A stretch of DNA of 64,000 bases from a virus (IMGVR_UViG_3300042507_003741:1-64000); one strand, 5' to 3'. Counted from the stretch's first letter, positions 1 through 60,802 are shown. Made by a program: numbers and translations. The notes: generated by a model from the sequence alone, not told the origin.

Positions 1-230
1 CACTTCCTGTCGATCACCTTGCGTAGCGTGTCGGCATCCCGTCGCCGCTCGTCCCCCAGTTGCTCAAGCCTCTCGCGCAGAATGGAGTTCACGCCGCGCA
101 GCCGCCATATCTCGTCTACCAGCGGATTGGCGCCGGTCGCCCAATGCAGCAGCCACGCCGATCCAACGAACGACGCCGGGATGAGTACGGCCAAAGAAAA
201 CCACGCATACCAAGGCATTTCGTTAGGCAT
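1..230 (-). CDS. Small membrane/coiled-coil protein (MPNEMPWYAWFSL...), stop codon cut by window edge
   Basis: Near-identical to ORF 60572-60802; ATG at 228-230. Confidence 0.7.
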   Translation of the reverse strand, partial: MPNEMPWYAWFSLAVLIPASFVGSAWLLHWATGANPLVDEIWRLRGVNSILRERLEQLGDERRRDADTLRKVIDRK

Positions 231-232
231 TT
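1..232. repeat. Direct repeat, copy 1 (copy 2 at 60573-60804)
   Basis: First 127 nt identical, then 5 substitutions up to about nt 232, then unrelated sequence. Confidence 0.95.
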
Positions 233-2288: not shown

Positions 2289-2628
2289 CGTTTCCTCTCT
2301 CTCATTGGGACGCTGGACAGGTGGACAGCATATCGCTGGACGGGCGTTTAGCAACCCCCCAGCACGCAGGGGTCGATCTGTTTTGGGAAAAAATCCAGGA
2401 GGGGAACGTAACTGATACGTGACGCGGCTGGGGGGGGCTCGGGGGCGTTCCATCTATACGCCGCCCCCCGCCGCAGAAAACAAGGCACCAATCCTTCACG
2501 CTGTCCGTCGCTGCCGTGAAACCGGCCCACGAAACCCCTTTCCATCGCGGTCCGTTCGCTGCGGAGTCTGCCTTGTGTCGGAACGACGACGGCGTTCGAC
2601 CGTCCAGTGACCGACCGGAGGATGACCC

Positions 2629-2835
2629 ATGCCGACGTTCAACTACGTCCACTGCACCTGCTGCGGCAACCAATTCACGGATCGGCTCGGCCTTCTTCGC
2701 GGCATCGACGCTCTCCACTTCGTCTGCACCTTGTGCGACGACGAGCGGCGTGTGGAGAACGCCGACGCCCATAGCCGCTGGCTCGACGAGATGGAGGCGC
2801 AGTGCGGCTGGTTCTCCGCTGCCGACGAGCGGTGA
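2629..2835 (+). CDS. Small Cys-rich (zinc-binding-like) protein
   Basis: GGAGG RBS; CTCC...CTLC. Confidence 0.7.
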   Translation: MPTFNYVHCTCCGNQFTDRLGLLRGIDALHFVCTLCDDERRVENADAHSRWLDEMEAQCGWFSAADER

Positions 2836-2910
2836 TTTGCCGCTGCGGAGTCTGCCTTTCGGTGGCCGACGTTCGGCCTGCCGTCCCGTCCCTCTCACTC
2901 GGAGCGTCCC

Positions 2911-3090
2911 ATGTTCTGCGTCGTGTCCATCACCGCCAGCGGCGAGCGTCGTGCCTACGTCTTTCCCTGCGAGCGGAAGGCCCGCTGGTACATCAACGAC
3001 AACGCGGATGGCGTGCGGCTGTTCGTGTTGTACGACCCTGCCGGCGAAGTCGTGATCGAGTCTCGGTTCCCGGTGCTGATGGTGGCCTAA
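2911..3090 (+). CDS. Hypothetical protein (59 aa, MFCVVSITASG...)
   Basis: GGAG RBS, ATG 2911, TAA 3088-3090, lies between two motif copies; below ORF-track cutoff. Confidence 0.65.
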   Translation: MFCVVSITASGERRAYVFPCERKARWYINDNADGVRLFVLYDPAGEVVIESRFPVLMVA

Positions 3091-3176
3091 ATCGCCGCTG
3101 CGGAGTCTGAATTGTGGCGGCGGCACGTTGCCGTTCGTCACTGGTTCGGTTGTTTCTTTCCATGAGGAGAATTGCC

Positions 3177-3593
3177 ATGACGATTGCCCAAATCCAGAAG
3201 ATCGCTGCCGAAGCCGTTGCCAATGCCCTGCGGCTCACGCAGACCCAAGATGCCCCCGCCCCCGTGAAGAAGGCGAGCGGCGACCTCAAGGCCAAACGGC
3301 TGGCCGCATTGGAGAAGGCCCGTGCCGCGAAGAAGGCGAAGGCGCAGGCCAAGCCCGCAGCCGTTGTCGCGGAACCCGTGAAGAAGCCCGCGAAGGTGAA
3401 GAAGGCACGCCCCGCATGGAGCGTCAAGGATCATGTCACGAAGAAGAACGTGAAGGGCCAGATCGTGCAGATCGGACCGTTCACCGCGTGGCTCCCAGAG
3501 GGCGACGAGGAGCGCAAGGCTGCGGTGTTCTCCGCGATCAACGACGTGTGCCGCACGGACGAAGTGCGGAAGTTGGCCGCTGCCATCCGCTGA
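3177..3593 (+). CDS. Lys/Ala-rich basic protein, possible DNA-binding
   Basis: GAGGAG RBS; KARAAKKAKAQAKPAA...KKPAKVKKA. Confidence 0.75.
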   Translation: MTIAQIQKIAAEAVANALRLTQTQDAPAPVKKASGDLKAKRLAALEKARAAKKAKAQAKPAAVVAEPVKKPAKVKKARPAWSVKDHVTKKNVKGQIVQIGPFTAWLPEGDEERKAAVFSAINDVCRTDEVRKLAAAIR

Positions 3594-3730
3594 TTCCGCC
3601 GCTGCGGAGTCTGACCAGTGAGGGCCGACGACGGCTCGGGCGGGTTCGTAGCCCGCCCCCTCACCTACGCCCATCGCAACTTCGCGGTGGGCGTTTGTGT
3701 TTCTAGTCCCTGTTTCACAAGGAGTTCACC

Positions 3731-3952
3731 ATGCCCCGTTCCCCTCTCGCCCAGTTCACCGGCAAAGACGGCTGCCTGTACCTCATCAACCTCAAGAGCG
3801 ACGGTCGCGTGTACGGTCCGTACCTGGACGCAAAGCAGGTTCGCATGGCCCGTGCCTGCATCCCCGCCCACGAGCACAGCAACGACGTTGTGCGTGCGTT
3901 CCGCGACGGCCTGCCTGCGGGGGAGGCCGACGTCAATCCGCTGACCCGGTAA
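3731..3952 (+). CDS. Hypothetical protein
   Basis: AAGGAG RBS; bounded by motif copies. Confidence 0.75.
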   Translation: MPRSPLAQFTGKDGCLYLINLKSDGRVYGPYLDAKQVRMARACIPAHEHSNDVVRAFRDGLPAGEADVNPLTR

Positions 3953-4048
3953 ATCACCGCTGCGGAGTCTGATTTTCACACTGCGAATGGGGCCAGTCGT
4001 CACGGTGGCGGCTGGCCCCGTCGCATTTCACCCACGAGGAGCGATGCC

Positions 4049-4393
4049 ATGTACGAACCACTCGACAACACCACGCCTCACTGGCCCGACGACTGCGGCC
4101 ACGACACGCTCGATCCCGCGTCTTTCGTGGGCACGTTCAAGATGTTTCATCACCCCCGCGAGGCGATTGTGGACGTGTACGTCTATGACGCACTTGGCGA
4201 CCCGCTGTCGCAGGGCATCTGCCTTCGGCACGGAACCGATCACCTCTATTCCACCGTGCGGGTGAACGAGATGTTCGATCACCCAATCGGCATGGAGTAC
4301 GACGGCGGGCTGCTCCGCTGCGCACGCACGTTTCTACTGTCACGGGGCACGTTTCGCTGGCAACCAGTGGCCGCAGTCGCCCACGACAACTGA
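4049..4393 (+). CDS. Hypothetical protein
   Basis: GAGGAG RBS; bounded by motif copies. Confidence 0.7.
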   Translation: MYEPLDNTTPHWPDDCGHDTLDPASFVGTFKMFHHPREAIVDVYVYDALGDPLSQGICLRHGTDHLYSTVRVNEMFDHPIGMEYDGGLLRCARTFLLSRGTFRWQPVAAVAHDN

Positions 4394-4479
4394 TTCGATA
4401 CGCGATTCCGCCGCTGCGGAGTCTGGATTCTGACCGGCGGCACAGTGCCGCCCGGCTTTCACCACGAAGGGAGTGCGTC

Positions 4480-4833
4480 ATGCACAAAGAGATCGCAGAA
4501 ATGTGGGTCGCTGCACTGCGAAGCGACGAGTACGGGCAGACCTACGGGTATCTCCGCCAGGAGTACGAGCCCGGCCAGTTTGCCTACTGTGCGTTGGGCG
4601 TGCTGTGCGACATCCACGCGAAGGCCACCGGCCTGCCTTTCGACAAAGAAAACGGCGGGCTCCCAACGGAAGTCGCCGTGTGGGCGGGCCTGCACTGGCT
4701 TGACCCGGATGTCGTCATGCCCGTTGGCGACAACGAGGAGGAGCACATGTCCATCACGTCTGCCAACGACGAGTACGGGTTTCCGTTCTCGCAAATCGCA
4801 GCGGCCATCTCGACGCAGTGGGAACGCCTGTAG
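4480..4833 (+). CDS. Conserved-type phage hypothetical protein
   Basis: WVAALRSxEY..YCALGVLCD..ND..GFPFSQIA pattern; GGGAG RBS. Confidence 0.75.
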   Translation: MHKEIAEMWVAALRSDEYGQTYGYLRQEYEPGQFAYCALGVLCDIHAKATGLPFDKENGGLPTEVAVWAGLHWLDPDVVMPVGDNEEEHMSITSANDEYGFPFSQIAAAISTQWERL

Positions 4834-4911
4834 TTCCCGCTGCGGAGTCTGTCTCTCGGTGACCGGACGTTCCGGCCACCCGTCCCTTGTCCCTTGTTTT
4901 GAGGAGTTCCC

Positions 4912-5082
4912 ATGCGCACGCATGTCACCACCACCAGCCCCCGCCTCATGCACTTCGTCTCGCTCGCCCGCGTGGCAAGCGAGGTGGGTGCGAAGTCGCA
5001 GCGTCACCTTCTGGCCGACCTCCGCACGCTCACCCATCGTGAGCGTCGTGAAGTGGCCGACCTCGTGAAGAAGGAGGGCTGA
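4912..5082 (+). CDS. Hypothetical protein (56 aa, MRTHVTTTSP...)
   Basis: GAGGAG RBS, ATG 4912, TGA 5080-5082. Confidence 0.65.
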   Translation: MRTHVTTTSPRLMHFVSLARVASEVGAKSQRHLLADLRTLTHRERREVADLVKKEG

Positions 5083-5085
5083 TGT

Positions 5086-5343
5086 ATGGAGTGGATCAAA
5101 TGCACAGACAGGCTTCCGCCAGACGCTCGCCCGACATACGCACAGCCTCCTGTGCTGGCGTGTACGAGGGGTGGCACTCGGCAGGCGATGCACTACGACC
5201 ACGACATGAAGGACTGGTACTGCGCTCAAGGCGATGGCTATGGGGTGCATGGCGACATCACCCACTGGATGCCGATGCCGCCGCCGCCGCCGGAGCAGGA
5301 ACGCAAAGAGATCGCTGATGTTCTGTACCCAGAGGAGGACTGA
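5086..5343 (+). CDS. DUF551-like protein
   Basis: MEWIKCTDRLP...ITHWMPMPPPP. Confidence 0.8.
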   Translation: MEWIKCTDRLPPDARPTYAQPPVLACTRGGTRQAMHYDHDMKDWYCAQGDGYGVHGDITHWMPMPPPPPEQERKEIADVLYPEED

Positions 5344-5346
5344 CAC

Positions 5347-5775
5347 ATGGCCGAAGCATACAAGGTCGCGGCTTCGTACCGCGATTCGATCCTCGCCCAC
5401 CAACGCATCCTGTGCGGCGATGACGTAGGCGAGGGCAAGGCATGGCAGGAGCAGGCCATGCGCCTGTCGCATGAACTGGAACGCTACGCCAGTTTCCTGC
5501 GGGACTGCGTGGGCGGCGGCTATCCCGGCCCCGTCGCGTTCCCATCATGGGACGAGGATGCTGCGGAACGATGGGACGGATACCAAATGGTGTGCGATGC
5601 GATCCGCAAGGCCGATCTCATCGACTATCTGGAGCAAAGCCGCTCCACGCTCAGCGATGCGATTTTTGATGGCAGGCGTGGACTGAACGCCAGCCTGGAC
5701 GCGATGCGGGCGACCTCTCTGGCCGCAGACGCCACCACGTTTTTGCGGGCGCTCGGCGTTCCGCAGGAGGACTGA
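5347..5775 (+). CDS. Hypothetical protein
   Basis: GGAGG RBS; contiguous in operon. Confidence 0.65.
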   Translation: MAEAYKVAASYRDSILAHQRILCGDDVGEGKAWQEQAMRLSHELERYASFLRDCVGGGYPGPVAFPSWDEDAAERWDGYQMVCDAIRKADLIDYLEQSRSTLSDAIFDGRRGLNASLDAMRATSLAADATTFLRALGVPQED

Positions 5776-5903
5776 TGGGCAACAAGTGGAACGACCAGTG
5801 GTGGTCACTGGTCAAGGCTGAACGAGTCAAGGAGGAGGAGCGACTGCGAGTGGCACGCAAGCACGCCAAGCGAGCCACTCGCCGCAAACAAAAGCAGCGG
5901 TGA
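5775..5903 (+). CDS. Small basic protein (42 aa)
   Basis: TGATG coupling, GGAGG RBS, stop just before motif copy 8. Confidence 0.5.
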   Translation: MGNKWNDQWWSLVKAERVKEEERLRVARKHAKRATRRKQKQR

Positions 5904-5989
5904 TCCGCCGCTGCGGAGTCTGGTTTTCGGCATGGGCCGTCCCGTCGTGGGGCGGCCCTTTCTTTTTCACCTTCGCTGAGGAGCGAGAC

Positions 5990-7234
5990 ATGAGCGACGA
6001 GAACGAAGTCCTGCACGACGAGTACGGGTTCAACGAGACCACCGGCATCCACCACGAGACGGGAACCTTGTGGGATCCCAACGGGTTCGACATGGAGGGG
6101 ATCCACCCAGCCACCGAGACGGAGTTCCACCCTACCACCTCCCGCACGCGCGACGGCGAGGCATACGACTCGGCGGGGTACGACTACAGGGGCTTCAACG
6201 AGGACGGCTACGACCGGGATGGGTACGACTCGGACGGGTACAACTACAACGGGGAGGACTGCTACGGCTTCACCCGCTGCGCCAACGGCGAGTGCGACGA
6301 CGACGACTGCGAGTGTCACGGCTCGGGCTTCGACGACCAACTCGACGACTACGGCACGCGGGCTCACCTCGCGCATGGCTGGGCGGCTGACCCGGCTCGT
6401 GGCCCCGCGTACATGTACGCCGGGCACGAGATCGAGATGTACTCCGACGACGAGGACTTCAGCGACGTGGAACACACGCTCGCCCAAGTCAACGACCTGT
6501 ATCGGAAACTCAATCCGCTCACCCGCAACCGCAAGTGCGCCATCGCCAAACGCGACGGCTCGCTCGACGAGTACGGTCCCGGCGGCTTTGAGTTGGTCAC
6601 GGTTCCGCTCACGACCGAGCAGGTCTACGGCATCTTCGGGGCGTTCAAGACGCTCGGCGACGGACGCTGCTCGGCGTGGAACATGGGCGAGGACGTTGGT
6701 CACCACATCCACCTGTCCAAAGCGGCCATCGGCCCGCTCACGCTGGGCAAGTTGCTGGTGTTCATGAACGCCGAGCCCAACCGCACGTTCCTGGAGGCCA
6801 TCGCCTGTCGCCCTGCGGGGTTCAACAAGTTCCGCACCAAGCAACTGACCCAGACGGAGAACAGCGACCGCTACGAAGTGCTGAACGTGACGAACACCAC
6901 CGTCGAGTTCCGCCTGTTCAAGAGCAACCTGTACAGCCGAGCGATCCTCAAGAACCACGAGTTCGCCGTTGCGGCTGTCAAGTTCTGCGAGCAGGCAGCA
7001 CACGGGTTCGGTGCGGTCGAGTCGTCCCTCGACCCGCTGCACGTCGCCAACTTCCGCGACTTCGTGGCGGTCAACCGCAGTGCGTACCGCTACCTGCATG
7101 AGTTCCTGCTGTCGCATCCGCTCATCAGCGGCGGCTACCGCAGCAACAGTCCGCTCCCGGCGAGCATCGCCAACCCGAAGGAGCGGTCGCCCGTGTTCAA
7201 CATGATCCGTACGTCGTCCGTCGTCGGTGCCTGA
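5990..7234 (+). CDS. Putative amidoligase (COOH-NH2 ligase family) with N-terminal GYD/GFN repeats
   Basis: GHEIE, KRDGSL, GFELVT, GHHIHLS, RY..LN, TVEFRLF motifs; adjacent GATase. Confidence 0.75.
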   Translation: MSDENEVLHDEYGFNETTGIHHETGTLWDPNGFDMEGIHPATETEFHPTTSRTRDGEAYDSAGYDYRGFNEDGYDRDGYDSDGYNYNGEDCYGFTRCANGECDDDDCECHGSGFDDQLDDYGTRAHLAHGWAADPARGPAYMYAGHEIEMYSDDEDFSDVEHTLAQVNDLYRKLNPLTRNRKCAIAKRDGSLDEYGPGGFELVTVPLTTEQVYGIFGAFKTLGDGRCSAWNMGEDVGHHIHLSKAAIGPLTLGKLLVFMNAEPNRTFLEAIACRPAGFNKFRTKQLTQTENSDRYEVLNVTNTTVEFRLFKSNLYSRAILKNHEFAVAAVKFCEQAAHGFGAVESSLDPLHVANFRDFVAVNRSAYRYLHEFLLSHPLISGGYRSNSPLPASIANPKERSPVFNMIRTSSVVGA

Positions 7235-7271
7235 CCCCTGGTTTCACTCACACTCACAAGGAGATTCCTGC

Positions 7272-8123
7272 ATGTGCCTCGCCATCTACAAGCCCGCCAC
7301 CACCACGCCCGATTGGTCCGCCTACCGCAACGGCTTCGCCGTGAACGACGATTCGTGGGGGTTTGCCGTCGTCGTTGACGGCACGCTCGTCACCCGCTGC
7401 GGCATCGGCCCCTTTGAGGAGTTCCGCGAAGCCTTCAGCCCTTACGCCGACCGACAGGCCATCATCCACTTCCGATGGGCCACGCACGGCAAGAAGGACA
7501 CGGGCAACTGCCACCCGTTCATGGTGAGCGACGCGCTCGCCGTGATCCACAACGGCGTGATCTCCATCCAGTGCGACGTGGACAAGGATCGCAGTGACAC
7601 TTGGCACTTCAACGAGTTGGTGCTCAAGCCACTGCACTCTCGGGACGAGGACTTCTACCGCCGACGCGAGGTGGTGTACACGCAGCAACTCGCCCACTCC
7701 GGCAGCAAGTTCGTGTTCCTGCGGGCGGACGGCGACTACTCCATCTGGAACGAGGACGACGGCGACTGGTCGCGTGACGGTCACTGGTACAGCAACGACT
7801 CGCACGAGGGTTCGTACTACCGCAGCATCGGCTACGGACTGACCTCTCGCACCACGACGACGGCCACCAAGACCGAGCGTTCGTGGATCGAGGCGTCGGA
7901 TGGCAAGTGGAAGTACGTTGAGGAGGACACCGCCGCGTCCGCCTGCCGCACGGCGTACGACCGCATGGCCGACGAGCAGGAGGAGGAGGACCGCGAGGAT
8001 TCGTTCTACACCAACATGCGGGTGGAGGACTTGCTCGCCTACGGGTTCAGTCGCAAGTGCTTGGCAGAAGTGCAGGACATGCTCGGCCACTTGGGCATCG
8101 AGGCGCTGCACGACGCCCTCTGA
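7272..8123 (+). CDS. Class II (Ntn) glutamine amidotransferase
   Basis: N-terminal MC, NDDSWG, HFRWATHG, NCHPF, HNG, SDT. Confidence 0.88.
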   Translation: MCLAIYKPATTTPDWSAYRNGFAVNDDSWGFAVVVDGTLVTRCGIGPFEEFREAFSPYADRQAIIHFRWATHGKKDTGNCHPFMVSDALAVIHNGVISIQCDVDKDRSDTWHFNELVLKPLHSRDEDFYRRREVVYTQQLAHSGSKFVFLRADGDYSIWNEDDGDWSRDGHWYSNDSHEGSYYRSIGYGLTSRTTTTATKTERSWIEASDGKWKYVEEDTAASACRTAYDRMADEQEEEDREDSFYTNMRVEDLLAYGFSRKCLAEVQDMLGHLGIEALHDAL

Positions 8124-8170
8124 TTTTCCCGCTGCGGAGTCTGTCTATACGGCAAGCAAGGAGGCAAGCC

Positions 8171-8263
8171 ATGCACCACTGGACCCATGCGGAGATCGAA
8201 ATCTTCCTCGCCATGTGCTACGTCGCCATGAAGGCGCTGGCACGGTGGGCGGAACTCGACTGA
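8171..8263 (+). CDS. Very small hydrophobic protein (30 aa)
   Basis: AAGGAGG RBS directly after motif copy 9. Confidence 0.45.
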   Translation: MHHWTHAEIEIFLAMCYVAMKALARWAELD

Positions 8264-8278
8264 CTAGAGGAACCCCAA

Positions 8279-8464
8279 ATGCAGCCAAGAGCCAAGCGAC
8301 TGTATCGGATTGCCGTGCAACAGGAGGAGAGCAAGCCCGAAAGAACTATGTACTTCACGTCCCATTCGTACGGGCCGATCCGCGTCGTGATGCGGCGGTT
8401 CGCAAAGCGATTCCCCAACTACTTCAGCATCGACGTTCGATGTGTAACACCAAAGGAGGAATGA
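8279..8464 (+). CDS. Small basic hypothetical protein
   Basis: GAGGA RBS; coupled to next ORF. Confidence 0.55.
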   Translation: MQPRAKRLYRIAVQQEESKPERTMYFTSHSYGPIRVVMRRFAKRFPNYFSIDVRCVTPKEE

Positions 8465-8736
8465 CCATGCCTTTTGCAGATGCCAAGTACCCGCCGTCCG
8501 CCAAGCGACTGTCTGGCGGAGGCTGGCCCGCTCACACCGTCACGCTAGCCAACGGGGAGCGACTGTACATCGAGGAGGCCGGGCCAAAGGTGGAGATCGC
8601 CTTGTGCGACAAGGGAACCGACAACCCCGATCTTTGGGTGTGCGCCATCACCCGAAACGGCGTGCTTACCTACGGGTACAGCGGTGATTCATGCGAGAGG
8701 ATCGCACAGGAGGTGCCGCTGTCATGTCGGACCTGA
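8461..8736 (+). CDS. Hypothetical protein (start 8461 or 8467)
   Basis: AAGGAGG RBS; MTMPFADAKYP... Confidence 0.6.
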   Translation: MTMPFADAKYPPSAKRLSGGGWPAHTVTLANGERLYIEEAGPKVEIALCDKGTDNPDLWVCAITRNGVLTYGYSGDSCERIAQEVPLSCRT

Positions 8737-9029
8737 CCCCACGCGAGCGAGAGATCCTCACCCTCATCGCCCGCTCGATTGACGCCAATGGATACCAGCC
8801 TTCCTACCGGGAGATCGCCGCCCACTTCGGGTGGACCGGGCTCGGCTGGTTGCAGTACCTCGCCCGCCGCATCGCACTCAAGGGCCATGCCCAAGTGATC
8901 GGCCCCCGTGCGTGGTCGTTCGACTGGAAGTCTTACCTCAAGGAGCAGAAGCATGACGCTGCAAGAACTGATGGATCGCGTACTCGCCGTGTTCCCCGAC
9001 GCCATGTTCGACGAGAGCGACGCGCGTGA
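8724..9029 (+). CDS. LexA-type winged-HTH DNA-binding protein, no peptidase domain
   Basis: LTPREREILTLI...NGYQPSYREIAAHFG; AGGAGG RBS. Confidence 0.8.
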   Translation: MSDLTPREREILTLIARSIDANGYQPSYREIAAHFGWTGLGWLQYLARRIALKGHAQVIGPRAWSFDWKSYLKEQKHDAARTDGSRTRRVPRRHVRRERRA

Positions 9030-9117
9030 GGTCGTCATCTACACCGGGATGCTCCGGCATCCGGATGACAACTGGAACACAGGCTCGCGACCCGTCGAAC
9101 CGTTGACGGAGAACTGA
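8953..9117 (+). CDS. Small acidic hypothetical protein
   Basis: AAGGAG RBS; MTLQELMDRV... Confidence 0.55.
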   Translation: MTLQELMDRVLAVFPDAMFDESDAREVVIYTGMLRHPDDNWNTGSRPVEPLTEN

Positions 9118-9147
9118 AAACATGTACACTCAAACAGGAGGCGGGGC

Positions 9148-9324
9148 ATGCAATACCCGACTACTACTGTGACCCTCACGCCACGCGAGATCGACCTCAT
9201 CATCACGGCCCTGCACGAAAGTGCGGAGGATCGCGAGCAGTTCGATGAACCCGAGCAGTCGGCGGCGTTCGCCGTCTTGCAGCGGAGGTTCGTCAAGGCA
9301 CAGAACCAAGTCATCACCCACTGA
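9148..9324 (+). CDS. Hypothetical protein (58 aa, MQYPTTTVTLTPREIDL...)
   Basis: AGGAGG RBS; fills gap between genes. Confidence 0.6.
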   Translation: MQYPTTTVTLTPREIDLIITALHESAEDREQFDEPEQSAAFAVLQRRFVKAQNQVITH

Positions 9325-9335
9325 AAGGATCCACC

Positions 9336-10214
9336 ATGACACCGACAACTCTCACCATCGGGTCGGGGCTCGGCGGCATCGCCATCCTCAACACCAAGAC
9401 GGTCAACCGCGACCGCCTCTACTGGGCGGCGGACAACGTGAACTGCGGGCAGTTCGTCCCTGCCCAGCCCGCTCGCACGACCGTGCTGCGGGACTGCATG
9501 AAGGACGTAGCCGACAGCCTGTACGGCCGCATCCGCAGGCAGCCCAACGTGGTGCGGCAACTGGACGACCCCGCCTCGTTTGAGGTGGTGCGTGTGGTGC
9601 CGGGCCAGTCGCAGAACGAGTACCGCTTCCTGTTCTCGGCCCTCATCGGCACGAACTGGGACGTTGGCATCCTGGAGTACGACTCCGCCGGGCCACGCGG
9701 CTCACAGGTTCTCGCCTCGCTCGACCCTGCGGTCGTGCAGCAGCGGGACTACCTGCCGTCCAGCGTGGTCGGTCAGGTGGTGGTCAAGATGCTCCGCCAC
9801 TGGAAGGCCACGCCCCTCAAGGACGACGGCGGCGTGTGGTTCATGCTGGGCCAGACGCTTGAGGACTTCCGCACGTTCGCACGCCTGCTGCTCGGGCCTC
9901 ACGCAGACGGCCCGCGATTCACCGTTCACCAAGTCGAGATCGCGTCCGATCCCGACACGGTGATGCACGTTCTCGACCGGCTCGGCTCGGAAGTGCAGGC
10001 CGGTCTGGCGGAGATCATGACCGACGTGATGGAAGCGACCGGCGGCATGGCCGACCGCTCTATCAACGTGCGAATCAACAGGGCCGACAGGTTTCTGGAG
10101 AAGGTGCGGTTGTACGAGCAGGTGCTCGGCCGACCGCTGCCCGAACTGACTGCGGCCATCGACCAAGTGAAGCAGGCAGTCGCCGTCAATCGGCTGCTGG
10201 CTGCGGCTGTCTGA
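9336..10214 (+). CDS. Hypothetical protein, possibly DUF3150/DUF6744-like partner of the AAA-vWA module
   Basis: 292 aa; GGVWF motif and helical C-terminus; context upstream of AAA/vWA; family call tentative. Confidence 0.6.
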   Translation: MTPTTLTIGSGLGGIAILNTKTVNRDRLYWAADNVNCGQFVPAQPARTTVLRDCMKDVADSLYGRIRRQPNVVRQLDDPASFEVVRVVPGQSQNEYRFLFSALIGTNWDVGILEYDSAGPRGSQVLASLDPAVVQQRDYLPSSVVGQVVVKMLRHWKATPLKDDGGVWFMLGQTLEDFRTFARLLLGPHADGPRFTVHQVEIASDPDTVMHVLDRLGSEVQAGLAEIMTDVMEATGGMADRSINVRINRADRFLEKVRLYEQVLGRPLPELTAAIDQVKQAVAVNRLLAAAV

Positions 10215-10241
10215 CCAATCCCACTCACTAAGGAGAGTGTT

Positions 10242-10559
10242 ATGCGTACGCTTCGCCTCGACTACAGCAAGTTCATCAGCGAGTACAAGGAAGCCCTGTC
10301 GTGTGACCTGCACTTCAAGGAGTTCTTGCAACTCGCCGGCATCAGTCCGTTCATGCTCAACGACAGGCTCAAGACGCTGGCCCGACGCGGCCTCGTCCTG
10401 CCCAAGTTGAAGGGCATGCGGAACAGGAAAAGCGGGGCCGCCCCCGCTCGTCGCAAGGTCAGACGCCCGCGCGTCTCGTCCAGGCCGAAGGCGGGTCACG
10501 CCACGCCCGCAACCGTGCGGGAAGCGGACTTGGCCTTCGTGATCTGCGTCGGCGGCTGA
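10242..10559 (+). CDS. Basic hypothetical protein, possible HTH
   Basis: AAGGAG RBS. Confidence 0.6.
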   Translation: MRTLRLDYSKFISEYKEALSCDLHFKEFLQLAGISPFMLNDRLKTLARRGLVLPKLKGMRNRKSGAAPARRKVRRPRVSSRPKAGHATPATVREADLAFVICVGG

Positions 10560-10662
10560 CGTTTTCCCCGCAGTTTTCCCGCTGCGGAGTCTGTTTGTGG
10601 GGGGCGGGGTAGCATCGTGCCGCCCCGCCCCCATTCCTTCCCTACTCAGGAGCATTTCGATC

Positions 10663-11766
10663 ATGCCTCGCACCACACTCGGCAACACCCCCGCGTTCCT
10701 CGCCTGTCAGGTCGCTCCCGTTCTGGTCACGGGCGGCACGGGCGTCGGCAAGTCCTCAACGTGGGAGGCACTGGCCGCCGCACTTGGGCGGGCGTTCGTC
10801 CCGCTGCTCGGTGCCACCCACCTGCCCGAAGATTTCTCTGGCTACCCCATCCCTGACCACAAGGCAGGCGTCGTCCGCATGATGCCGACCTCCCTGTGGG
10901 ACAAGACCAAAGACGGCAAGGCTCTCGTGCTCGTGGACGAGGTGACCAACGTGCCGTCTGCCACGCAAGGAGGCTTGCTCTCCGTCCTGTCGGAGCGACG
11001 AGTCGGCGAGTACGTCATGCCGGCATCGACCATCATCGTCGGTGCGTGCAACCCACCGGAACTGTGCCCCAATGCGGTGCCCCTCGCGCCTGCCATGCGG
11101 GCACGGTTCGTCCACTTCCCATGGGAGGTGGACTACGACCACTGGTTCACCGGCCTGCGGGCTGGCTGCCATTGGACGGCTCCGCAGTTCCCCATCGTGC
11201 CGGAACACTGGACCGACTTCCTCCCGCAGTTCGGCTCGCTGGTGGAGGCGTTCCTCCGCTCGGCACCCGACGCTCGGGAGAAGTTGCCGCAGGACGACGA
11301 GACGATGGCGTTCCCCAACCTGCGGACCTGGACGTTCCTCGCCAAGTGCTTCGCTGCGGCGGGTGCCTGCGGGTACGAACAGAAAGACCCCATCTACCGG
11401 CCGCTCGCCGTTGGCTGCGTCGGTGCGGAGGTGGGCGGCGAGTTCCTCCGGTACTGGCACCGGCTCGACCTGCTCAATCCGGAGGCGTACCTGTCCGGTG
11501 CGGAGGACTACAAGTACGAGCGTCGGCCCGACGCCAACATCTGCTTCCTCACTGGGCTGGTGAAGTCGCTGCGTGACAACACCAGCAAGGAGCGGTGGAC
11601 TCGTGCGGCGGAGGCATTCATCACCATCGGGGAGCAGGAGATCGAGTCGTTTCTCATGCAGTTCCGTTCGTTCTGGAATCCTGTCAGCAAGGGGGGCGTG
11701 CGTCCCGATGGCTGGTCGCCCCCGAAGGACGTGCTGGCGAAGTTGATGGCTCTGGTTCAGTCGTGA
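10663..11766 (+). CDS. MoxR-like AAA+ ATPase
   Basis: Walker A GGTGVGKS, Walker B LVLVDE, sensor GACNP, AMRARF arginine finger. Confidence 0.88.
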   Translation: MPRTTLGNTPAFLACQVAPVLVTGGTGVGKSSTWEALAAALGRAFVPLLGATHLPEDFSGYPIPDHKAGVVRMMPTSLWDKTKDGKALVLVDEVTNVPSATQGGLLSVLSERRVGEYVMPASTIIVGACNPPELCPNAVPLAPAMRARFVHFPWEVDYDHWFTGLRAGCHWTAPQFPIVPEHWTDFLPQFGSLVEAFLRSAPDAREKLPQDDETMAFPNLRTWTFLAKCFAAAGACGYEQKDPIYRPLAVGCVGAEVGGEFLRYWHRLDLLNPEAYLSGAEDYKYERRPDANICFLTGLVKSLRDNTSKERWTRAAEAFITIGEQEIESFLMQFRSFWNPVSKGGVRPDGWSPPKDVLAKLMALVQS

Positions 11767-11785
11767 CCCCACAGGAAACAGGAGC

Positions 11786-12001
11786 ATGCAAGACATGATT
11801 TGGAATCTCTTTCAGCCCGACTACGGCAAAGTCCCCAGCAAGGTCGGCCGCTACCTCGTGGCACGCTCGCACGGGTACGTCCAGATCGCACTCTGGAACG
11901 GCGACTACTTTGTCCCCGACGACTTGCCCACGCATCGACGCCTCAGCGACGTTGATTCATGGGCCGACATCCCCCAACCCCCTCACGGGAGAGACACATG
12001 A
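11786..12001 (+). CDS. Small protein, DUF551-like
   Basis: VDSWADIPQPP C-terminus; AGGAG RBS. Confidence 0.55.
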   Translation: MQDMIWNLFQPDYGKVPSKVGRYLVARSHGYVQIALWNGDYFVPDDLPTHRRLSDVDSWADIPQPPHGRDT

Positions 12002-13494
12002 CCCCACGACAACTACTGGGGCAGGCACGGGTACATACCTTTGAGTATGTCCCGTACCTCGCGTCATACATCTACTCCCTGCGTGAGCAGGAGACGCCGG
12101 GCATCGGCACGGCAGCAGTGGATGCGGCCGGCAACCTGTACTGGGATGCCGAGTTCGTATCCAAGATCGGTCGAGATCAGACCGCCTACCTCGTAGCCCA
12201 CGAGGTGTTGCATCTGATCTTCGACCACCACTCCCGGTCGCAAGAGATACTCGGCAAGAACCCGAGCGACTTGGAGCGATTCGTCTGCAACATGGCCGGC
12301 GATCTGGTCATCGAGCAGACGCTCTCCATGATGCGGCACTTGCGACCGGAGGGTGCCGTGTATCTGGGAGTAGAAGTGCCGGCGTGGGGCATCACGCTCG
12401 ACTTCCCCGAGAACAAGTCGATGCAGGAGTATTACCGCCTCATCATGGAGAAGTTGAAGAATGGCGACAACAACCAACAACAAGGAGACGGCAATGGGGA
12501 ATCTGATTCCGATGGGTCTGCCGGAGGTAGTGGTGAGCAGGGGGATTCGTCCGCATCCGGCGGCGACGATTCCGATGGACAAGGCGATGACGACATGGGC
12601 GGCGAGGGCAGCGACGGTGGCGATGGCAGTCAGGACGATGGGGGAGACGCTGACGAAGACGGTACTGAAGCGGACGGCAGCCCGAGTCCGTCTGGCAACG
12701 GAGCGGGGTCGCCTCCGTCTGAGCAGGGCACGGCACCGCAGCCGCCCGGTACGCCGGGCACGGGGGGCTCGTGTGCGGACGGGCTACCTCGCCCGTACGA
12801 GATAGACAGCGACGGGTCGTGGGAGGCGTACGGCGAGGACATGGCCGCAGCCCAAGCGGAGGACGCCATCGCCAAGTACGAGGCCAGCAATCCAGGCAAG
12901 GTGCCCGGCAATATCAAGCAGGCACTCAAGCAGAAGTTGCGGCCCACGCCCGACCCGTTCGCCCAGTTGCGGTCGGCGGTCTGCACCAGCGTGGCATCGC
13001 CGGTCGGCGGACGGGACTACTCCCACCGCCGCCGGTCACGCAAGCAGCCGCCGGGAGACGATGCCCCGATTCTGCACGGCCGCATCACCGTGCAGCCCCA
13101 CGCCGTCGTGATCGTGGATACGTCCTACTCCATGATGCGAACGGACATCCAGGCGAAGGCGCTCTCGGTCATCGCTCAAGGACTGCGGAAACTGGGGCGG
13201 GTCAAGGTCTACTGCGCCGACACGCAGGTGCAGTCGCACAAGACGGTCGCCACGACCAAGTTGTTTGAATGGCACGGCGGCGGTGGCACGGACATGCCCA
13301 CCGCCATCGCGCAGGTGGAGCGGGAGGACCGGCCCGACTCCATCGTTCTCATCACCGACGCCGAGACACACTGGCACGGCAAGAAGCCCCGTGCCCGTGT
13401 CGTCGTGGCGTACACCGGCAAGAAGGGATCGTCCTGGCACGCCGCAATCCCGCAGTGGGCTCGCGTTGTGCCTCTGTCTCAGGAAGGAGCATGA
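11998..13494 (+). CDS. DUF2201-type HExxH metallopeptidase-like plus vWA domain protein
   Basis: HEVLH; acidic Gly/Asp linker; MIDAS DTSYS, GGGGTD, ITD. Confidence 0.85.
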   Translation: MTPRQLLGQARVHTFEYVPYLASYIYSLREQETPGIGTAAVDAAGNLYWDAEFVSKIGRDQTAYLVAHEVLHLIFDHHSRSQEILGKNPSDLERFVCNMAGDLVIEQTLSMMRHLRPEGAVYLGVEVPAWGITLDFPENKSMQEYYRLIMEKLKNGDNNQQQGDGNGESDSDGSAGGSGEQGDSSASGGDDSDGQGDDDMGGEGSDGGDGSQDDGGDADEDGTEADGSPSPSGNGAGSPPSEQGTAPQPPGTPGTGGSCADGLPRPYEIDSDGSWEAYGEDMAAAQAEDAIAKYEASNPGKVPGNIKQALKQKLRPTPDPFAQLRSAVCTSVASPVGGRDYSHRRRSRKQPPGDDAPILHGRITVQPHAVVIVDTSYSMMRTDIQAKALSVIAQGLRKLGRVKVYCADTQVQSHKTVATTKLFEWHGGGGTDMPTAIAQVEREDRPDSIVLITDAETHWHGKKPRARVVVAYTGKKGSSWHAAIPQWARVVPLSQEGA

Positions 13495-14397: not shown

Positions 14398-14610
14398 ATG
14401 AGTTTCTTCGACTACAAGTACGGCCACAGCACTGTCCGCGAACGCTTTCGCGAGATGCTCGGGCTCAACTCCGGGCCTATCGAGTGGGTCTTCCGGCTTG
14501 CGATCCTGGCACTGATGGTCCGCACCAGCCTCGATCCGACCGAGCCCATCTACATGGGTCCGTTCGGCTGGCTCTGCGTCGTGGTCTTCGTCTTCTTCTA
14601 CTTGCTCTAG
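14398..14610 (+). CDS. Small two-TM membrane protein
   Basis: AAGGA RBS; two hydrophobic segments. Confidence 0.6.
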   Translation: MSFFDYKYGHSTVRERFREMLGLNSGPIEWVFRLAILALMVRTSLDPTEPIYMGPFGWLCVVVFVFFYLL

Positions 14611-14621
14611 GAGTCACGCAC

Positions 14622-15362
14622 ATGCCCATCGTCTATGCGTATGGCCGGGCATCCACCGGCCGACAGACCATCACGGAGGACGCCCAGCGCTCCGTGTGCG
14701 AGGAGTACATCAAGCGGGCGCTCGTCCCGGAGGGCTACACCTACGGCGGCTGGCTCTACGACTCCGCCACCAGCGGCACTAAGCCGATGTTTGAGCGGGA
14801 CGAGGGCCGCAAGGTGTGGGCTCTCGTCCAGCCGGGCGACAAGATCGTGTGGGCCAAACTCGACCGGGCTTTCCGCTCCGTCATCGACGCCGCCCAGACG
14901 ATGCAGTTGCTCAACCGGAAGGAGGTGTCGTTCAACTCCCTTGATCTCGGGCTGGACACCGGCAGTCCCATCGGCCGCTGCGTGTTCACGATCCTCACGG
15001 CGTTCGCGGAACTGGAGGTGGAGTTCATCCGACAGCGAACCCGAGACAGCCTGCGTGCGAAGCGCCGGGCCGGCAAGCCGCACGGTCGCCATGCCCCCAT
15101 CGGCTGGAAGAAGTGCGGCAAAGGGAAGGACTCTTACTACCTGCCCGACCCGGAGGAGCGTGCGATGGTCGAGGAGATGGCCCAGAGGCGAGCGGCCGGC
15201 TGGTCGCTGGAGCGGCTGACCATGGCGTACTACAGAGTCAGCAGGCCGAATGGCTACAAGTGGAACATCAACTCCATCAGCCGGGCGCTCAAGGCACAAG
15301 CGGTTCGCTTTGCAAAAGCGTTTCCAGACAGCCCAAAGCGACGGCGAGTCGGCGCTGGATAG
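14622..15362 (+). CDS. Serine recombinase (resolvase/invertase family)
   Basis: YGRASTGRQ catalytic motif; SGT, KLDRAFR, AFAELE..IRQRT. Confidence 0.92.
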   Translation: MPIVYAYGRASTGRQTITEDAQRSVCEEYIKRALVPEGYTYGGWLYDSATSGTKPMFERDEGRKVWALVQPGDKIVWAKLDRAFRSVIDAAQTMQLLNRKEVSFNSLDLGLDTGSPIGRCVFTILTAFAELEVEFIRQRTRDSLRAKRRAGKPHGRHAPIGWKKCGKGKDSYYLPDPEERAMVEEMAQRRAAGWSLERLTMAYYRVSRPNGYKWNINSISRALKAQAVRFAKAFPDSPKRRRVGAG

Positions 15363-15813
15363 TGCGAGGGTCGCAACCCACCTGCTCGCCAATCTCCCGC
15401 AGGCTGAGTCCGCGAAAGAAACGCAAGTGGATCAGCCTGCGGGACTTGGCGGGGAGCCGGGCAATCGCCGCCTGGATTTTCGTGGACAGGACGCGCTGCT
15501 TGCCTGCGGCCACAGCCTCCGCAACCTCCATCGAGACTCGATCCGGCGAGTCATACCGCAGTCGCCGGTTGCGGTCGATCTCCTTGAGCAAGGCGTTGCG
15601 GATTGCCATCGAGAAGTAGGTCGTCACCTTTGACTTGGCTGGGTCGTACGTAACGGCCGCCTTGCAGATAGCCAGATACGCCACGCTCGTCGCGTCTATT
15701 GCGTTCGCCTGCCTGCGCAGGGATGGATACCTGCGACGGAAGGCTGCAATCGCCTTCGGCACAATCTCCATCGCTTGCTCGGCAAGCCGCTGCTGCTCTG
15801 CTGTCAGGTGCAT
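15289..15813 (-). CDS. Sigma-70-family RNA polymerase sigma factor (regions 2 and 4)
   Basis: AYLAICKAAVTYDPAK...TTYFSMAIRN; LIHLRFFRGLSLREIGEQVG HTH. Confidence 0.85.
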   Translation of the reverse strand: MHLTAEQQRLAEQAMEIVPKAIAAFRRRYPSLRRQANAIDATSVAYLAICKAAVTYDPAKSKVTTYFSMAIRNALLKEIDRNRRLRYDSPDRVSMEVAEAVAAGKQRVLSTKIQAAIARLPAKSRRLIHLRFFRGLSLREIGEQVGCDPRTIQRRLAVALGCLETLLQSEPLVP

Positions 15814-15852
15814 ACCTGCACTCTGACGCATGCGGCCCAAGTGGATAGGCCG

Positions 15853-60571: not shown

Positions 60572-60802
60572 TCACTTCCTGTCGATCACCTTGCGTAGCG
60601 TGTCGGCATCCCGTCGCCGCTCGTCCCCCAGTTGCTCAAGCCTCTCGCGCAGAATGGAGTTCACGCCGCGCAGCCGCCATATCTCGTCTACCAGCGGATC
60701 GGCGCCGGTAGCCCAATGCAGCAGCCACGCCGATCCAATGAACGACGCCGGGATGAGTACGGCCAAGGAGAACCACGCATACCAAGGCATTTCGTTAGGC
60801 AT
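60572..60802 (-). CDS. Small membrane/coiled-coil protein (second copy)
   Basis: Near-identical to 1-230. Confidence 0.7.
   Translation of the reverse strand: MPNEMPWYAWFSLAVLIPASFIGSAWLLHWATGADPLVDEIWRLRGVNSILRERLEQLGDERRRDADTLRKVIDRK

What the first reader, a model, noticed from the sequence alone, without database searches (positions are those of the whole stretch)
2557..10662. Modular + strand gene array punctuated by a conserved 15-mer, an RNA hairpin and an RBS
Seen: CCGCTGCGGAGTCTG at 2557 (14/15), 2840, 3095, 3599, 3957, 4411, 4837, 5908, 8129 and 10579, all on the + strand, and not noticed elsewhere in the window. Seven copies start 3-5 nt after the previous stop codon and two start within 20 nt. 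In nine of ten copies a GC-rich hairpin of unrelated sequence begins roughly 3-11 nt downstream (GGCCGA-CGT-TCGGCC, GCGGCA-CGT-TGCCGT, CCGGA-CGT-TCCGG, GGGCCGTCCC..GGGGCGGCCC). Their G-U pairs favour + strand RNA, and an A-CGT-T loop recurs three times. A pyrimidine tract and strong RBS follow. The core CCGC-T-GCGG is palindromic. Inference, three options: (a) reiterated early promoters giving 5'-hairpin-protected mRNAs; (b) an RNA processing signal; (c) crossover or homology sites that make each gene an exchangeable cassette, perhaps with the serine recombinase closing the block at 14622. This would be a second cassette grammar in the same phage.
Basis: partly seen in the sequence, partly recalled or inferred. 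Interest (0 to 1): 0.8.

Follow-up and report, generated by a model that had tools for sequence, protein, structure and literature searches.

The report
Repeated gene-start cassettes in lake phage
An uncultured lake phage and at least 18 related phage contigs put the same 15-base box, usually followed by an RNA hairpin, in front of each unit of one gene block; this is most likely a private "start here" signal, and related phages differ in gene content at the edges of these units.

Summary
CCGCTGCGGAGTCTG occurs 9 times exactly and once with one mismatch, all on the + strand at 2556-10593. It occurs nowhere else in the 81.6-kb record; 0.51 copies are expected by chance.

Each copy lies after a stop codon or, for the first copy, in the divergent control region. 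A + strand RNA-type hairpin follows in 9 of 10 copies, then a pyrimidine tract, a ribosome site and ATG.

The same box forms one-strand arrays in 18 further IMG/VR contigs. It stays invariant there while the proteins fall to about 45-50% identity.

Gene content differs between relatives at the unit edges: just 5' of the box, or between hairpin and ribosome site. The edges rarely fall inside the unit.

Best reading (0.45): reiterated single-block promoters whose transcripts begin at the hairpin. This is a non-sigma-70 variant of the PeSL cassettes of T4-type phages, and the repeats double as homology for gene shuffling.

Rivals are an RNA processing signal, an operator or roadblock, local antitermination, and a dedicated recombination site.

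The LexA-like protein is an unlikely reader. The serine recombinase has no support. No transcript data exist.

The scan has noted PeSL-like arrays in other genomes, but none with this sequence.

The parts
2556..10662 (+). Array of 10 box units punctuating the + strand gene block
2291..2555 (.). Divergent non-coding region between the - strand SSB gene (ATG near 2290) and unit 1. It holds a block at about 2381-2460 that is conserved in relatives.
   Evidence: Function not established.
2556..2628 (+). Unit 1. Box at 2556-2570 (14 of 15). Hairpin at about 2577-2615. Ribosome site at 2617. ATG at 2629 (68-aa gene).
2840..2910 (+). Unit 2. Box at 2840-2854. Hairpin at about 2860-2883 (CGT loop). 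ATG at 2911 (59 aa).
3095..3176 (+). Unit 3. Box at 3095-3109. Hairpin at about 3114-3141 (CGT loop). ATG at 3177 (138 aa).
3599..3730 (+). Unit 4. Box at 3599-3613. Compound structure including hairpins at about 3638-3658 and 3667-3694 (the latter followed by a T run). ATG at 3731 (73 aa).
3957..4048 (+). Unit 5. Box at 3957-3971. Long hairpin at about 3982-4025. TTTCAC box. ATG at 4049 (114 aa).
   Evidence: In relatives this leader type precedes at least 9 different genes.
4411..4479 (+). Unit 6. Box at 4411-4425. Hairpin at about 4434-4455. ATG at 4480 (117 aa, phrog_18067).
4837..4911 (+). Unit 7. Box at 4837-4851. Hairpin at about 4858-4880 (CGT loop). ATG at 4912 (56 aa), then three tightly packed genes up to 5903.
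5908..5989 (+). Unit 8. Box at 5908-5922. Hairpin at 5934-5958 followed by a T run. ATG at 5990 (amidoligase-like gene, then a GATase-like gene up to 8123).
8129..8170 (+). Unit 9. Box at 8129-8143. No hairpin. Ribosome site at 8158. ATG at 8171 (conserved 30-aa peptide gene).
10579..10662 (+). Unit 10, the last. Box at 10579-10593. Hairpin at about 10600-10632. ATG at 10663 (AAA/MoxR-type ATPase, then the VWA-like gene and onward to the resolvase, with no further box).
15289..15840 (-). Phage ECF-family sigma factor. It is a candidate reader of the box, by inference only.
   Evidence: assign the family. One search shows its DNA-binding regions are conserved in the 5 relatives with a full-length sigma.
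8691..9029 (+). LexA-DNA-binding-domain-like protein inside the array.
   Evidence: assign the domain. One search shows the recognition helix is variable.

Best explanation
Each unit is a compact transcription-start cassette. The 15-bp box is a single-block promoter element. It is read by a factor shared by this whole phage lineage: possibly host RNA polymerase carrying the phage's own ECF-family sigma, or another unidentified factor.

Transcription would start about 6-7 nt after the box. The GC-rich hairpin would then sit at or within a few bases of the 5' end of the mRNA. There it would protect the message, and where a U run follows it would damp read-through from upstream units. A ribosome site and the gene follow.

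The units are about 60-100 nt of conserved sequence reiterated along the block. They therefore also act as portable homology, so related phages gain, lose and replace the ribosome-site-ORF-stop segments between them.

Shown here: the anatomy, the conservation, the strand of the hairpins, and the places where gene content changes. Inferred: that the box is a promoter, where transcripts start, who reads the box, and how recombination proceeds.
For: 1. Sharp block. In 117 distinct contexts (the window's record plus 20 loci from 18 IMG/VR contigs) all 15 positions carry 1.5-2.0 bits. The flanks fall below 0.9 bit at once.

2. Only repeat. It is the only word of 10 nt or more that is repeated at least 3-4 times in both this genome and the complete relative G406.

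3. Orientation and place. Copies lie on one strand per record, co-directional with the genes. Counts are 10/0 here, then 12/0, 9/0, 10/0 and 9/1 in four relatives. They lie only in the gene block. The first copy sits in the divergent region where a promoter is needed.

4. No dependence on neighbours. The box needs neither an upstream gene (unit 1) nor a hairpin. 8 of 107 distinct units have no stable hairpin and leaders of only 22-29 nt, with the ribosome site starting 6-14 nt after the box. Any start or cut must therefore lie in or just after the box.

5. Start-like step. Six to seven nt after the box, position +20 is a pyrimidine in 106 of 117 contexts and +21 is a purine in 111 of 117. In the window this holds for 8 of 10 units (read). 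The hairpins begin 0-11 nt after the box.

6. Sigma geometry. The box contains GTC about 9-10 nt before that purine. I recall this as the geometry of ECF-type -10 elements. The phage encodes an ECF-family sigma, and its region 2 and region 4 helices are conserved in the 5 relatives where a full-length sigma was recovered.

7. Precedent for single-block promoters. The phiEco32 sigma gp36 uses a single conserved element with starts 6-8 bp downstream (passages of PMC8948821).

8. RNA hairpins. They are + strand RNA-type. The consensus folds are better on the + strand in 7 of 7 leader families, with 6-36 G-U cells each.

9. One common reader or copy homogenisation. In relative G403, 8 of 9 copies share the same T-to-C change at box position 14. 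Either copies are homogenised or they all answer to one reader.

10. Closest known layout. PeSL cassettes run stop codon, promoter, stem-loop, ribosome site, start, and sit at indels between related phages (PMC2839356, sections 13 and 16).

11. Gene flux at the unit edges.
Against: - There is no transcript evidence. No RNA run holds the region.
- No -35-like block exists. The sequence upstream of the box is ordinary coding sequence. Yet the phage sigma has a region 4, which normally reads a -35 element.
- Fifteen fully informative positions are more than most sigma-type promoters carry.
- No phage RNA polymerase was found (whose control rang nowhere).
- If the block is the earliest-expressed region, a phage-made sigma would not yet be present.
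- Phage sigmas usually drive late genes, and the late genes here carry no box.
- In 39 of 99 units with a stable leader fold, at least 4 of the 10 nt after the hairpin are T. Such hairpins would also terminate transcripts that start at their own box.
- The pyrimidine-purine step could simply mark where G-rich stems begin.
Confidence: 0.45

Rival explanations
1. RNA punctuation. The block is transcribed as one long RNA from a promoter in the divergent region. The box acts in the RNA as the recognition site of a sequence-specific endoribonuclease or RNA-binding protein. That factor cuts or blocks decay just after the box. The result is gene-sized mRNAs that begin with a protective hairpin.
For: - The same anatomy fits: a box, a U-rich single-stranded spacer of about 5-11 nt, then a + strand RNA hairpin.
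- The pyrimidine-purine step at +20/+21 could be a cleavage site.
- Hairpin apexes are constrained: 50 of 98 are 3-nt loops, mostly closed by A-U. That hints at recognition of the folded RNA.
- The box abuts the stop codons. 56 of 97 gaps are 3-5 nt.
- A 265-nt conserved non-coding region lies before unit 1 and could hold the single promoter.
- No recognisable promoter sits at the units.
Against: - Known bacterial and phage endoribonucleases read much shorter or structural signals (my knowledge). No candidate enzyme was found in the block.
- No Rfam family matches.
- 8 of 107 units have no hairpin.
- No host-type promoter was found upstream of unit 1 either.
Confidence: 0.25
2. DNA operator or roadblock. 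A phage-encoded or host regulator binds the asymmetric box at every gene boundary and shuts down or gates transcription of the block, like the stoperators of cluster A mycobacteriophages.
For: - The site is asymmetric and has many copies.
- Copies keep one orientation relative to transcription and lie in short gaps at stop codons.
- The first copy lies in the control region.
- A LexA-type DNA-binding protein is encoded in the block, and tblastn found it in 12 of the 20 related loci searched; the other 8 cover only part of the block.
- The first nine bases of the box form a perfect palindrome.
Against: - The recognition helix of the LexA-like protein differs strongly between relatives that share the identical box.
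- The box is invariant across 18 contigs whose proteins fall to about 45-50% identity. Immunity operators diversify with their repressors (the title of PMC6550527 in the listing, otherwise my recollection).
- The sites are confined to about 8 kb, not spread over the genome.
- The fixed short distance to the hairpin has no role in this model.
Confidence: 0.12
3. Local antitermination or attenuation. The hairpins are terminators that close each gene. A factor bound to the box in the nascent RNA or the DNA lets polymerase pass the terminator that follows.
For: - Many hairpins in relatives are followed by U-rich runs and look like intrinsic terminators.
- Two hairpins in the window pass a strict scan.
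- The box lies at a fixed short distance 5' of the hairpin.
- Unit 1 would gate entry into the block.
Against: - In only 39 of 99 units with a stable leader fold are at least 4 of the 10 nt after the hairpin T.
- The box does not overlap the stems, so no alternative pairing is evident.
- Hairpin-less units still carry the box.
- Known processive systems need one site per operon, not one per gene (my knowledge).
Confidence: 0.08
4. Dedicated recombination site. The box is the crossover site of a site-specific recombinase, for example the resolvase at 14484-15362, which would make each gene a mobile cassette.
For: - Gene content differs at the unit edges.
- A small serine recombinase closes the block.
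- An integron-type cassette array exists elsewhere in the same genome (earlier notes e1-6112749 and e1-6112750, not re-tested here).
Against: - Homology breaks lie 5' of the box or after the hairpin. Only 12 of 266 right ends fall at the 3' end of the box.
- One leader type stays in place while at least 9 different genes follow it.
- The box is asymmetric and has no inverted partner. Serine recombinases use dyad sites (my knowledge).
- All copies are direct repeats, so resolvase action would delete the genes between them.
- The units are also needed for expression of essentially every gene group in the block.
Confidence: 0.05

Closest known systems
PeSL (promoter-early stem-loop) cassettes of T4-type phages RB49/phi1, PST and nt-1. 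Sources: Arbiol et al. 2010, PMC2839356, sections 13 and 16 read; Comeau et al. 2014, PMC4122927, abstract read.
   Same: Both are reiterated intergenic composite units in a block of small, variable, non-structural genes. The order is the same: upstream stop codon, conserved signal, GC stem-loop with G-U (G-T) pairs, ribosome site, start codon. In both, the units sit at insertions, deletions and replacements between related phages.
   Different: PeSLs carry a recognisable sigma-70-type -35/-10 promoter with an AT-rich upstream region. Here there is a single 15-bp GC-rich box with no bipartite promoter. The stem-loop always follows the box. The box is invariant across a whole uncultured lineage. 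Promoter and terminator activity and mini-circles were shown experimentally for PeSLs; none of these is shown here.
Late promoters of T7-group phages paired with leader hairpins or RNase III sites
   Same: A near-identical contiguous promoter block repeated before many genes, followed by a stem-loop at or near the 5' end of the RNA, then the ribosome site.
   Different: T7-group phages encode a single-subunit RNA polymerase. None was detected here (whose control rang nowhere). The box is shorter.
Single-element promoters of the phiEco32 sigma gp36 (passages of PMC8948821).
   Same: A phage-encoded sigma of the sigma-70 family reads one highly conserved block, with starts 6-8 bp downstream and no -35 element.
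   Different: According to that paper gp36 lacks homology to region 4. The sigma here has a clear region 4. The phiEco32 element has 9 conserved positions and 6 mapped copies before middle and late genes.
Stoperators of cluster A mycobacteriophages. Only the search listing was seen (PMC9283540, abstract start; PMC6550527, title and abstract start). Details are recalled.
   Same: Asymmetric sites of 13-15 bp, many copies, one orientation relative to transcription, in short intergenic gaps at stop and start codons.
   Different: Stoperators are spread over both genome arms and differ between immunity groups. Here the sites fill one 8-kb block and are invariant. No repressor is identified.

Membership tests
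PeSL cassettes | Reiterated composite intergenic motif concentrated in a block of small variable genes | tested here: met
   10 units lie in 2556-10662 and none elsewhere. The same holds in 4 of 4 relatives searched whole.
PeSL cassettes | Sigma-70-type -35/-10 promoter with an AT-rich upstream region | tested here: not met
   One search finds 1 sigma-70-like site in 14 kb (1.7 expected), and it is not at a unit. The logo is a single block. The sequence upstream is coding.
PeSL cassettes | Stable stem-loop within the unit | tested here: met
   99 of 107 distinct units have a leader fold of -10 kcal/mol or lower. In the window it is 9 of 10.
PeSL cassettes | Units lie at indels and replacements between related phages | tested here: met
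   107 of 284 homology left ends lie within -30 to +14 of a box start, against 6.3% of random positions. 39 of 266 right ends lie at the leader end, against 5.4%.
PeSL cassettes | Demonstrated promoter and terminator activity; mini-circles | not testable with these tools
   This needs reporter assays and PCR on phage DNA.
T7-type promoter system | Phage-encoded single-subunit RNA polymerase | tested here: inconclusive
   PF00940 gives no match in the record, but the control genomes gave none either. The large ORFs have no polymerase family hit.
Stoperator system | Sites spread across the genome and co-varying with the repressor | tested here: not met
   The sites are confined to one block. The box is invariant while the only DNA-binding candidate varies in its recognition helix.
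Stoperator system | Bound by the phage repressor, blocking elongation | not testable with these tools
   This needs binding and transcription assays.
ECF-sigma promoter | Bipartite -35 and -10 elements about 16-17 bp apart (recalled) | tested here: not met
   There is no conserved second block on either side of the box. Only a GTC core at a suitable distance from the pyrimidine-purine step fits.
Integron attC cassettes | Recombination site is the folded imperfect palindrome itself, with conserved core sites at both ends | not tested
   No attC model was run. From the sequence, the conserved box lies outside the hairpin, and the stems differ between positions.
Rfam RNA families | Match to a curated covariance model | tested here: not met
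   For 2300-10800, 3 weak matches (E 1.7-3) all fall far below their gathering scores.

The most novel reading that the evidence does not exclude
The box and the apex-constrained hairpin together form an RNA-level punctuation code. A dedicated, still unidentified factor of this phage lineage or its host reads the code. It cuts or caps a long early transcript 6-7 nt after every box, so each gene gets its own hairpin-headed mRNA without its own promoter. The same units serve on the DNA as the fixed scaffold between which genes are exchanged. That would be a promoter-independent cassette grammar, distinct from both integrons and PeSLs.
Probability: 0.2. Interest if true: 0.7.

Novelty: new variant of a known kind. 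Interest (0 to 1): 0.5.

Why it matters
If the box is a promoter, it defines the transcription signal of an uncultured freshwater phage lineage. That lineage has no cultured relative. A distant prophage-like relative lies in a Planctomycetales genome. The box would also be an unusually long single-block promoter with no -35 element.

Either way, this is a clean natural example of a fixed regulatory scaffold with exchangeable genes between the units. It extends the PeSL idea beyond T4-type phages and beyond sigma-70 promoters.

The box is also a practical marker. An exact 15-mer search recovers the lineage and the start of each gene unit in metagenomes.

Tried and rejected
Host-type repeated element. 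The exact box gives single hits in 7 of 401 genomes of the phylum of the Planctomycetales MAG, against 4 hits for the backwards control. At up to 2 mismatches it is not enriched in that MAG (36 hits against 109 for the control). In the second MAG it is weakly above its control (25 against 14), and the one-mismatch copies examined there are not unit-like. The true host is unknown, so this is not a full test.

Classical ECF promoter. A two-block pattern written from recalled ECF consensus elements matches at 21011 on the - strand, but that site lies in coding sequence and is not conserved in G406. The similar match inside the unit 1 hairpin is not conserved in relatives.

Second repeated motif for the late genes. 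None of 10 nt or more is shared by both complete genomes.

LexA-like protein as reader. Rejected because its recognition helix is variable.

Sigma co-variation with the G403 box variant. No distinctive change appears in regions 2 or 4. This is uninformative.

Hidden RNA polymerase. A D-x-D-G-D pattern occurs once, in the 1287-aa virion protein, about as often as chance allows by my rough estimate. The Atlas search of the 1197-aa protein returned only unnamed virus clusters.

Rfam. Nothing.

Pairing of the box with its upstream flank. Seen in a few units only.

Box copies inside ORFs in relatives. They read Ala-Ala-Glu-Ser in Ala-rich proteins and lack hairpins. I judge them incidental.

RNA data. 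No RNA holder is listed. The four runs laid were DNA contigs only.

GenBank phages. No DNA match to the array or to one unit.

Earlier notes of this scan. None matches by sequence.

Supplementary files of the papers were not opened. PeSL alignments held there might refine the comparison.

Full report
THE OBSERVATION

The 15-mer CCGCTGCGGAGTCTG is present 9 times exactly and once with a single mismatch (2556-2570). All copies are on the + strand between 2556 and 10593. Shuffled sequence gives 0.51 matches at up to 2 mismatches, and 0 of 100 shuffles reach 10.

The window is bases 1-64000 of an 81,601-base IMG/VR virus record. The whole record holds the same 10 forward copies, none reverse, and none for the backwards control.

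With gene ends, the gaps between the preceding stop codon and the box are 4, 4, 5, 4, 17, 3, 4, 5 and 19 nt.

The first copy has no + strand gene before it. It lies in a 338-nt divergent gap next to a - strand SSB gene, whose ATG is near 2290.

Nine of ten leaders fold into strong hairpins of -20 to -62 kcal/mol. The unit at 8129 has a 27-nt leader and no hairpin. Every unit ends in a strong ribosome site and ATG.

GENOMIC SETTING

The + strand block runs from 2629 to about 15362. It encodes, in order:
- many small ORFs;
- an amidoligase-like and a glutamine-amidotransferase-like protein;
- a conserved 30-aa peptide;
- a protein with a LexA-type DNA-binding domain (8691-9029);
- a DUF6744 protein;
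- an AAA/MoxR-type ATPase;
- a DUF2201/VWA protein;
- a small serine recombinase (14484-15362).

An ECF-family sigma gene lies convergently at 15289-15840. Most of the rest of the genome appears to be - strand replication and virion genes, by the rough gene map and the family hits.

Genes without a box before them overlap or abut the previous gene. Each box therefore opens a group of 1-4 genes.

No cultured phage is close. There is no DNA match. The best portal match is 24.7% identity over 34% of the protein.

A portal search of species-representative genomes found two relatives. One has 40% identity and lies inside a 2.7-Mb contig of an uncultured Planctomycetales MAG. The other has 68% identity and lies on a 25-kb MAG contig.

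THE BOX IS A LINEAGE-WIDE SIGNAL

Most are single hits, as expected by chance for a 15-mer in so large a collection (my estimate).

Twenty loci from 18 different contigs carry arrays of 3-14 copies at up to 2 mismatches. All or nearly all the copies in a locus lie on one strand.

Four of these records were searched whole. At up to 1 mismatch they hold 12, 9, 10 and 9 copies on one strand, and 0, 0, 0 and 1 on the other.

One record, G406, is complete. It is 60,354 bases with a 127-base end overlap, and it is collinear with window positions 1955-56466.

A logo of 117 distinct contexts shows 15 positions of 1.5-2.0 bits with flanks below 0.9 bit. The box is the only word of 10 nt or more repeated in both complete genomes.

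The proteins of the block fall to about 45-50% identity between these phages, while the box does not change.

Variation is limited to the first base and the last two. In G403, 8 of 9 copies share the same T-to-C change at the fourteenth base. In the window the units at the same array positions have T there. The copies are therefore either homogenised or selected together.

ANATOMY OF THE UNIT ACROSS RELATIVES

I called 133 units in 21 sequences. Of these, 107 distinct units have a called start and a leader of at most 150 nt.
- The median leader is 67 nt, with a range of 22-139.
- 99 of 107 leaders fold at -10 kcal/mol or lower.
- The 8 that do not have leaders of 22-29 nt. Seven of them precede the conserved 30-31-aa peptide gene.
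- Among 97 units with an upstream stop within 30 nt, 56 have a gap of 3-5 nt and 10 have none.

Upstream of the stop, only the three-base periodicity of coding sequence is seen. No second conserved block exists.

After the box, position +20 is a pyrimidine in 106 of 117 contexts and +21 is a purine in 111 of 117. The hairpins begin 0-11 nt after the box.

For 7 of 7 leader families the consensus fold is more stable on the + strand than on the reverse strand. Examples are -39.7 against -27.9 and -27.8 against -15.3 kcal/mol. Each family has 6-36 G-U cells. The hairpins therefore act in + strand RNA, or less likely in + strand single-stranded DNA.

Within one array position the hairpin is almost invariant between phages. 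Between positions the stems differ but the apex is similar. 50 of 98 hairpins have 3-nt loops. CGU is the commonest loop (20), and these loops are usually closed by A-U.

In 39 of 99 folded units, at least 4 of the 10 nt after the hairpin are T. In 56 of 99, at least 7 are pyrimidines. Two hairpins in the window pass a strict terminator scan.

A T[TC]CAC box lies 14-26 nt (in 6 units only 5-6 nt) before the ATG in 39 of 100 distinct units. It occurs in 7.7% of random windows and before 2 of 41 - strand genes.

GENE FLUX

I labelled each unit by upstream gene, leader type and downstream gene. The leaders form a positional scaffold.
- The leader type of the window's unit 5 precedes at least 9 different genes in 9 phages.
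- The types of units 4 and 1 precede 3 and 7 different genes.
- The leader before the amidoligase-like gene follows at least 6 different upstream genes.

I compared 16 arrays by blastn.
- 107 of 284 left ends of homology lie within -30 to +14 of a box start, and 58 of them lie at -1 to +1. Random positions give 6.3%.
- 39 of 266 right ends lie 61-100 nt after the box start, at the end of the leader. Random positions give 5.4%.
- Only 12 right ends lie at the 3' end of the box.

Contigs from four lake metagenomes laid on the window show the same pattern.
- Loose ends begin 5 nt before the box at 3095 and 4 nt before the box at 8129.
- Loose ends stop at the last base of the box at 10579.
- Joints include 4031 to 4411, 4031 to 4470 and 5821 to 10574.

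The box-hairpin unit therefore stays whole, and the segment from ribosome site to stop codon is what changes.

Two biases apply. A conserved island attracts alignment ends, and only intergenic junctions survive selection. This shows where differences lie, not how they arose.

WHAT THE BOX MOST LIKELY DOES

The box works without an upstream gene and without a hairpin. In the hairpin-less units it sits 6-14 nt before the ribosome site. It heads the array and has sharp edges. These features fit a promoter, an RNA cleavage or binding site, or a DNA operator.

Three points make me prefer a promoter (0.45).
- The pyrimidine-purine step 6-7 nt after the box coincides with the start of the hairpins. 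That would give mRNAs headed by a 5'-terminal stem-loop, which I recall as a known stabiliser.
- The box contains GTC at a distance from that step which I recall as typical of ECF-type -10 elements. The phage has an ECF-family sigma whose DNA-binding helices are conserved in the 5 relatives where a full-length sigma was recovered.
- A phage sigma that uses a single conserved element, with starts 6-8 bp downstream, is documented for phiEco32 (passages of PMC8948821).

The layout matches the PeSL cassettes of T4-type phages: stop codon, promoter, stem-loop with G-T pairs, ribosome site and start, placed at indels between related phages (PMC2839356, sections 13 and 16; abstract of PMC4122927).

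The evidence against this reading is substantial.
- There are no transcript data.
- There is no -35-like block, although the sigma has a region 4.
- The box carries more information than most sigma-type promoters.
- No phage polymerase was found.
- The late genes carry no box.
- The U-rich hairpins would also stop transcripts that start at their own box.

THE RIVALS

An RNA processing or stability signal (0.25) predicts the same 5' ends and explains the constrained hairpin apexes. However, no enzyme candidate and no known RNA family was found.

An operator or roadblock (0.12) fits the asymmetry, the orientation and the placement at stop codons. Three points count against it. The only DNA-binding candidate varies in its recognition helix between phages that share the identical box. 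The box does not diversify. The sites are confined to one block.

Local antitermination (0.08) fits the terminator-like hairpins but not the hairpin-less units.

A dedicated recombination site (0.05) is contradicted by the position of the breaks and by the asymmetry of the box. Nothing ties it to the resolvase.

HOST SCAN

The exact box is not a repeated element in 401 genomes of the phylum of the Planctomycetales MAG. There are 7 single hits, against 4 for the control. At up to 2 mismatches it is not enriched in that MAG (36 hits against 109 for the control) and only weakly above the control in the second MAG (25 against 14), where the one-mismatch copies I examined are not unit-like. The true host is unknown.

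VERDICT

Option (b) remains open. Option (c) holds only in the weak sense that the units mark where gene content changes.

This is a new variant of the PeSL kind, with a single-block, non-sigma-70 box that is specific to the lineage. The scan's earlier notes list many PeSL-like arrays in other genomes, which lowers the surprise. None shares this sequence.

Noticed in passing
window 1-232 and 60573-60804; record 60573-81601: Bases 1-232 recur at 60573-60804 at 97.8% identity. The complete relative G406 is 60,354 bases and collinear with window 1955-56466. The 81.6-kb record therefore looks like one genome of about 60.6 kb followed by about 21 kb of a second, related phage that carries no box. 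It may be a chimeric or concatenated assembly.
   Followed up: partly
window 2381-2460, within the divergent gap 2291-2555: A conserved non-coding block lies between the SSB gene and unit 1. It is shared by most relatives and includes a 22-base stretch that is unique in the window. It probably holds the control signals for one or both divergent gene sets.
   Followed up: partly
window 8171-8263: A 30-aa peptide gene is 65-96% identical in the 10 related loci where tblastn found it (86-96% in the 6 closest). Seven of the 8 units without a stable hairpin precede this gene, and their leaders are the shortest.
   Followed up: no
leaders of the units, e.g. window 4020-4031, 4456-4463 and 5964-5970: A T[TC]CAC box lies 14-26 nt (in 6 units only 5-6 nt) before the ATG in 39 of 100 distinct units. 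It occurs in 7.7% of random windows and before 2 of 41 - strand genes. In the leader type of unit 5, sequence similarity between relatives ends right after this box, as read from the alignment.
   Followed up: partly
relative G403 (locus L098): 8 of 9 box copies carry the same T-to-C change at the fourteenth base. Another group of relatives (L079, L054, L023) often ends the box in T instead of G. This is concerted change across the copies.
   Followed up: partly
L131 (Planctomycetales MAG, 2.7-Mb contig, 466-488 kb): A portal gene 40% identical to the phage's lies inside a large bacterial contig, so it may be a distant prophage. The 15-mer search of this genome listed no copy at up to 2 mismatches between 466 and 488 kb of that contig.
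   Followed up: partly
window 5990-8123 and 10663-13494: The block holds an amidoligase-like and a GATase-like pair, and an AAA/MoxR and DUF2201-VWA pair. tblastn found them in most related loci that reach those parts of the block. Their role in infection is unknown.
   Followed up: no
window 8691-9029: The LexA-domain protein keeps its scaffold, but its presumed recognition helix differs strongly between relatives. Its own target, if it has one, should therefore differ between phages.
   Followed up: partly
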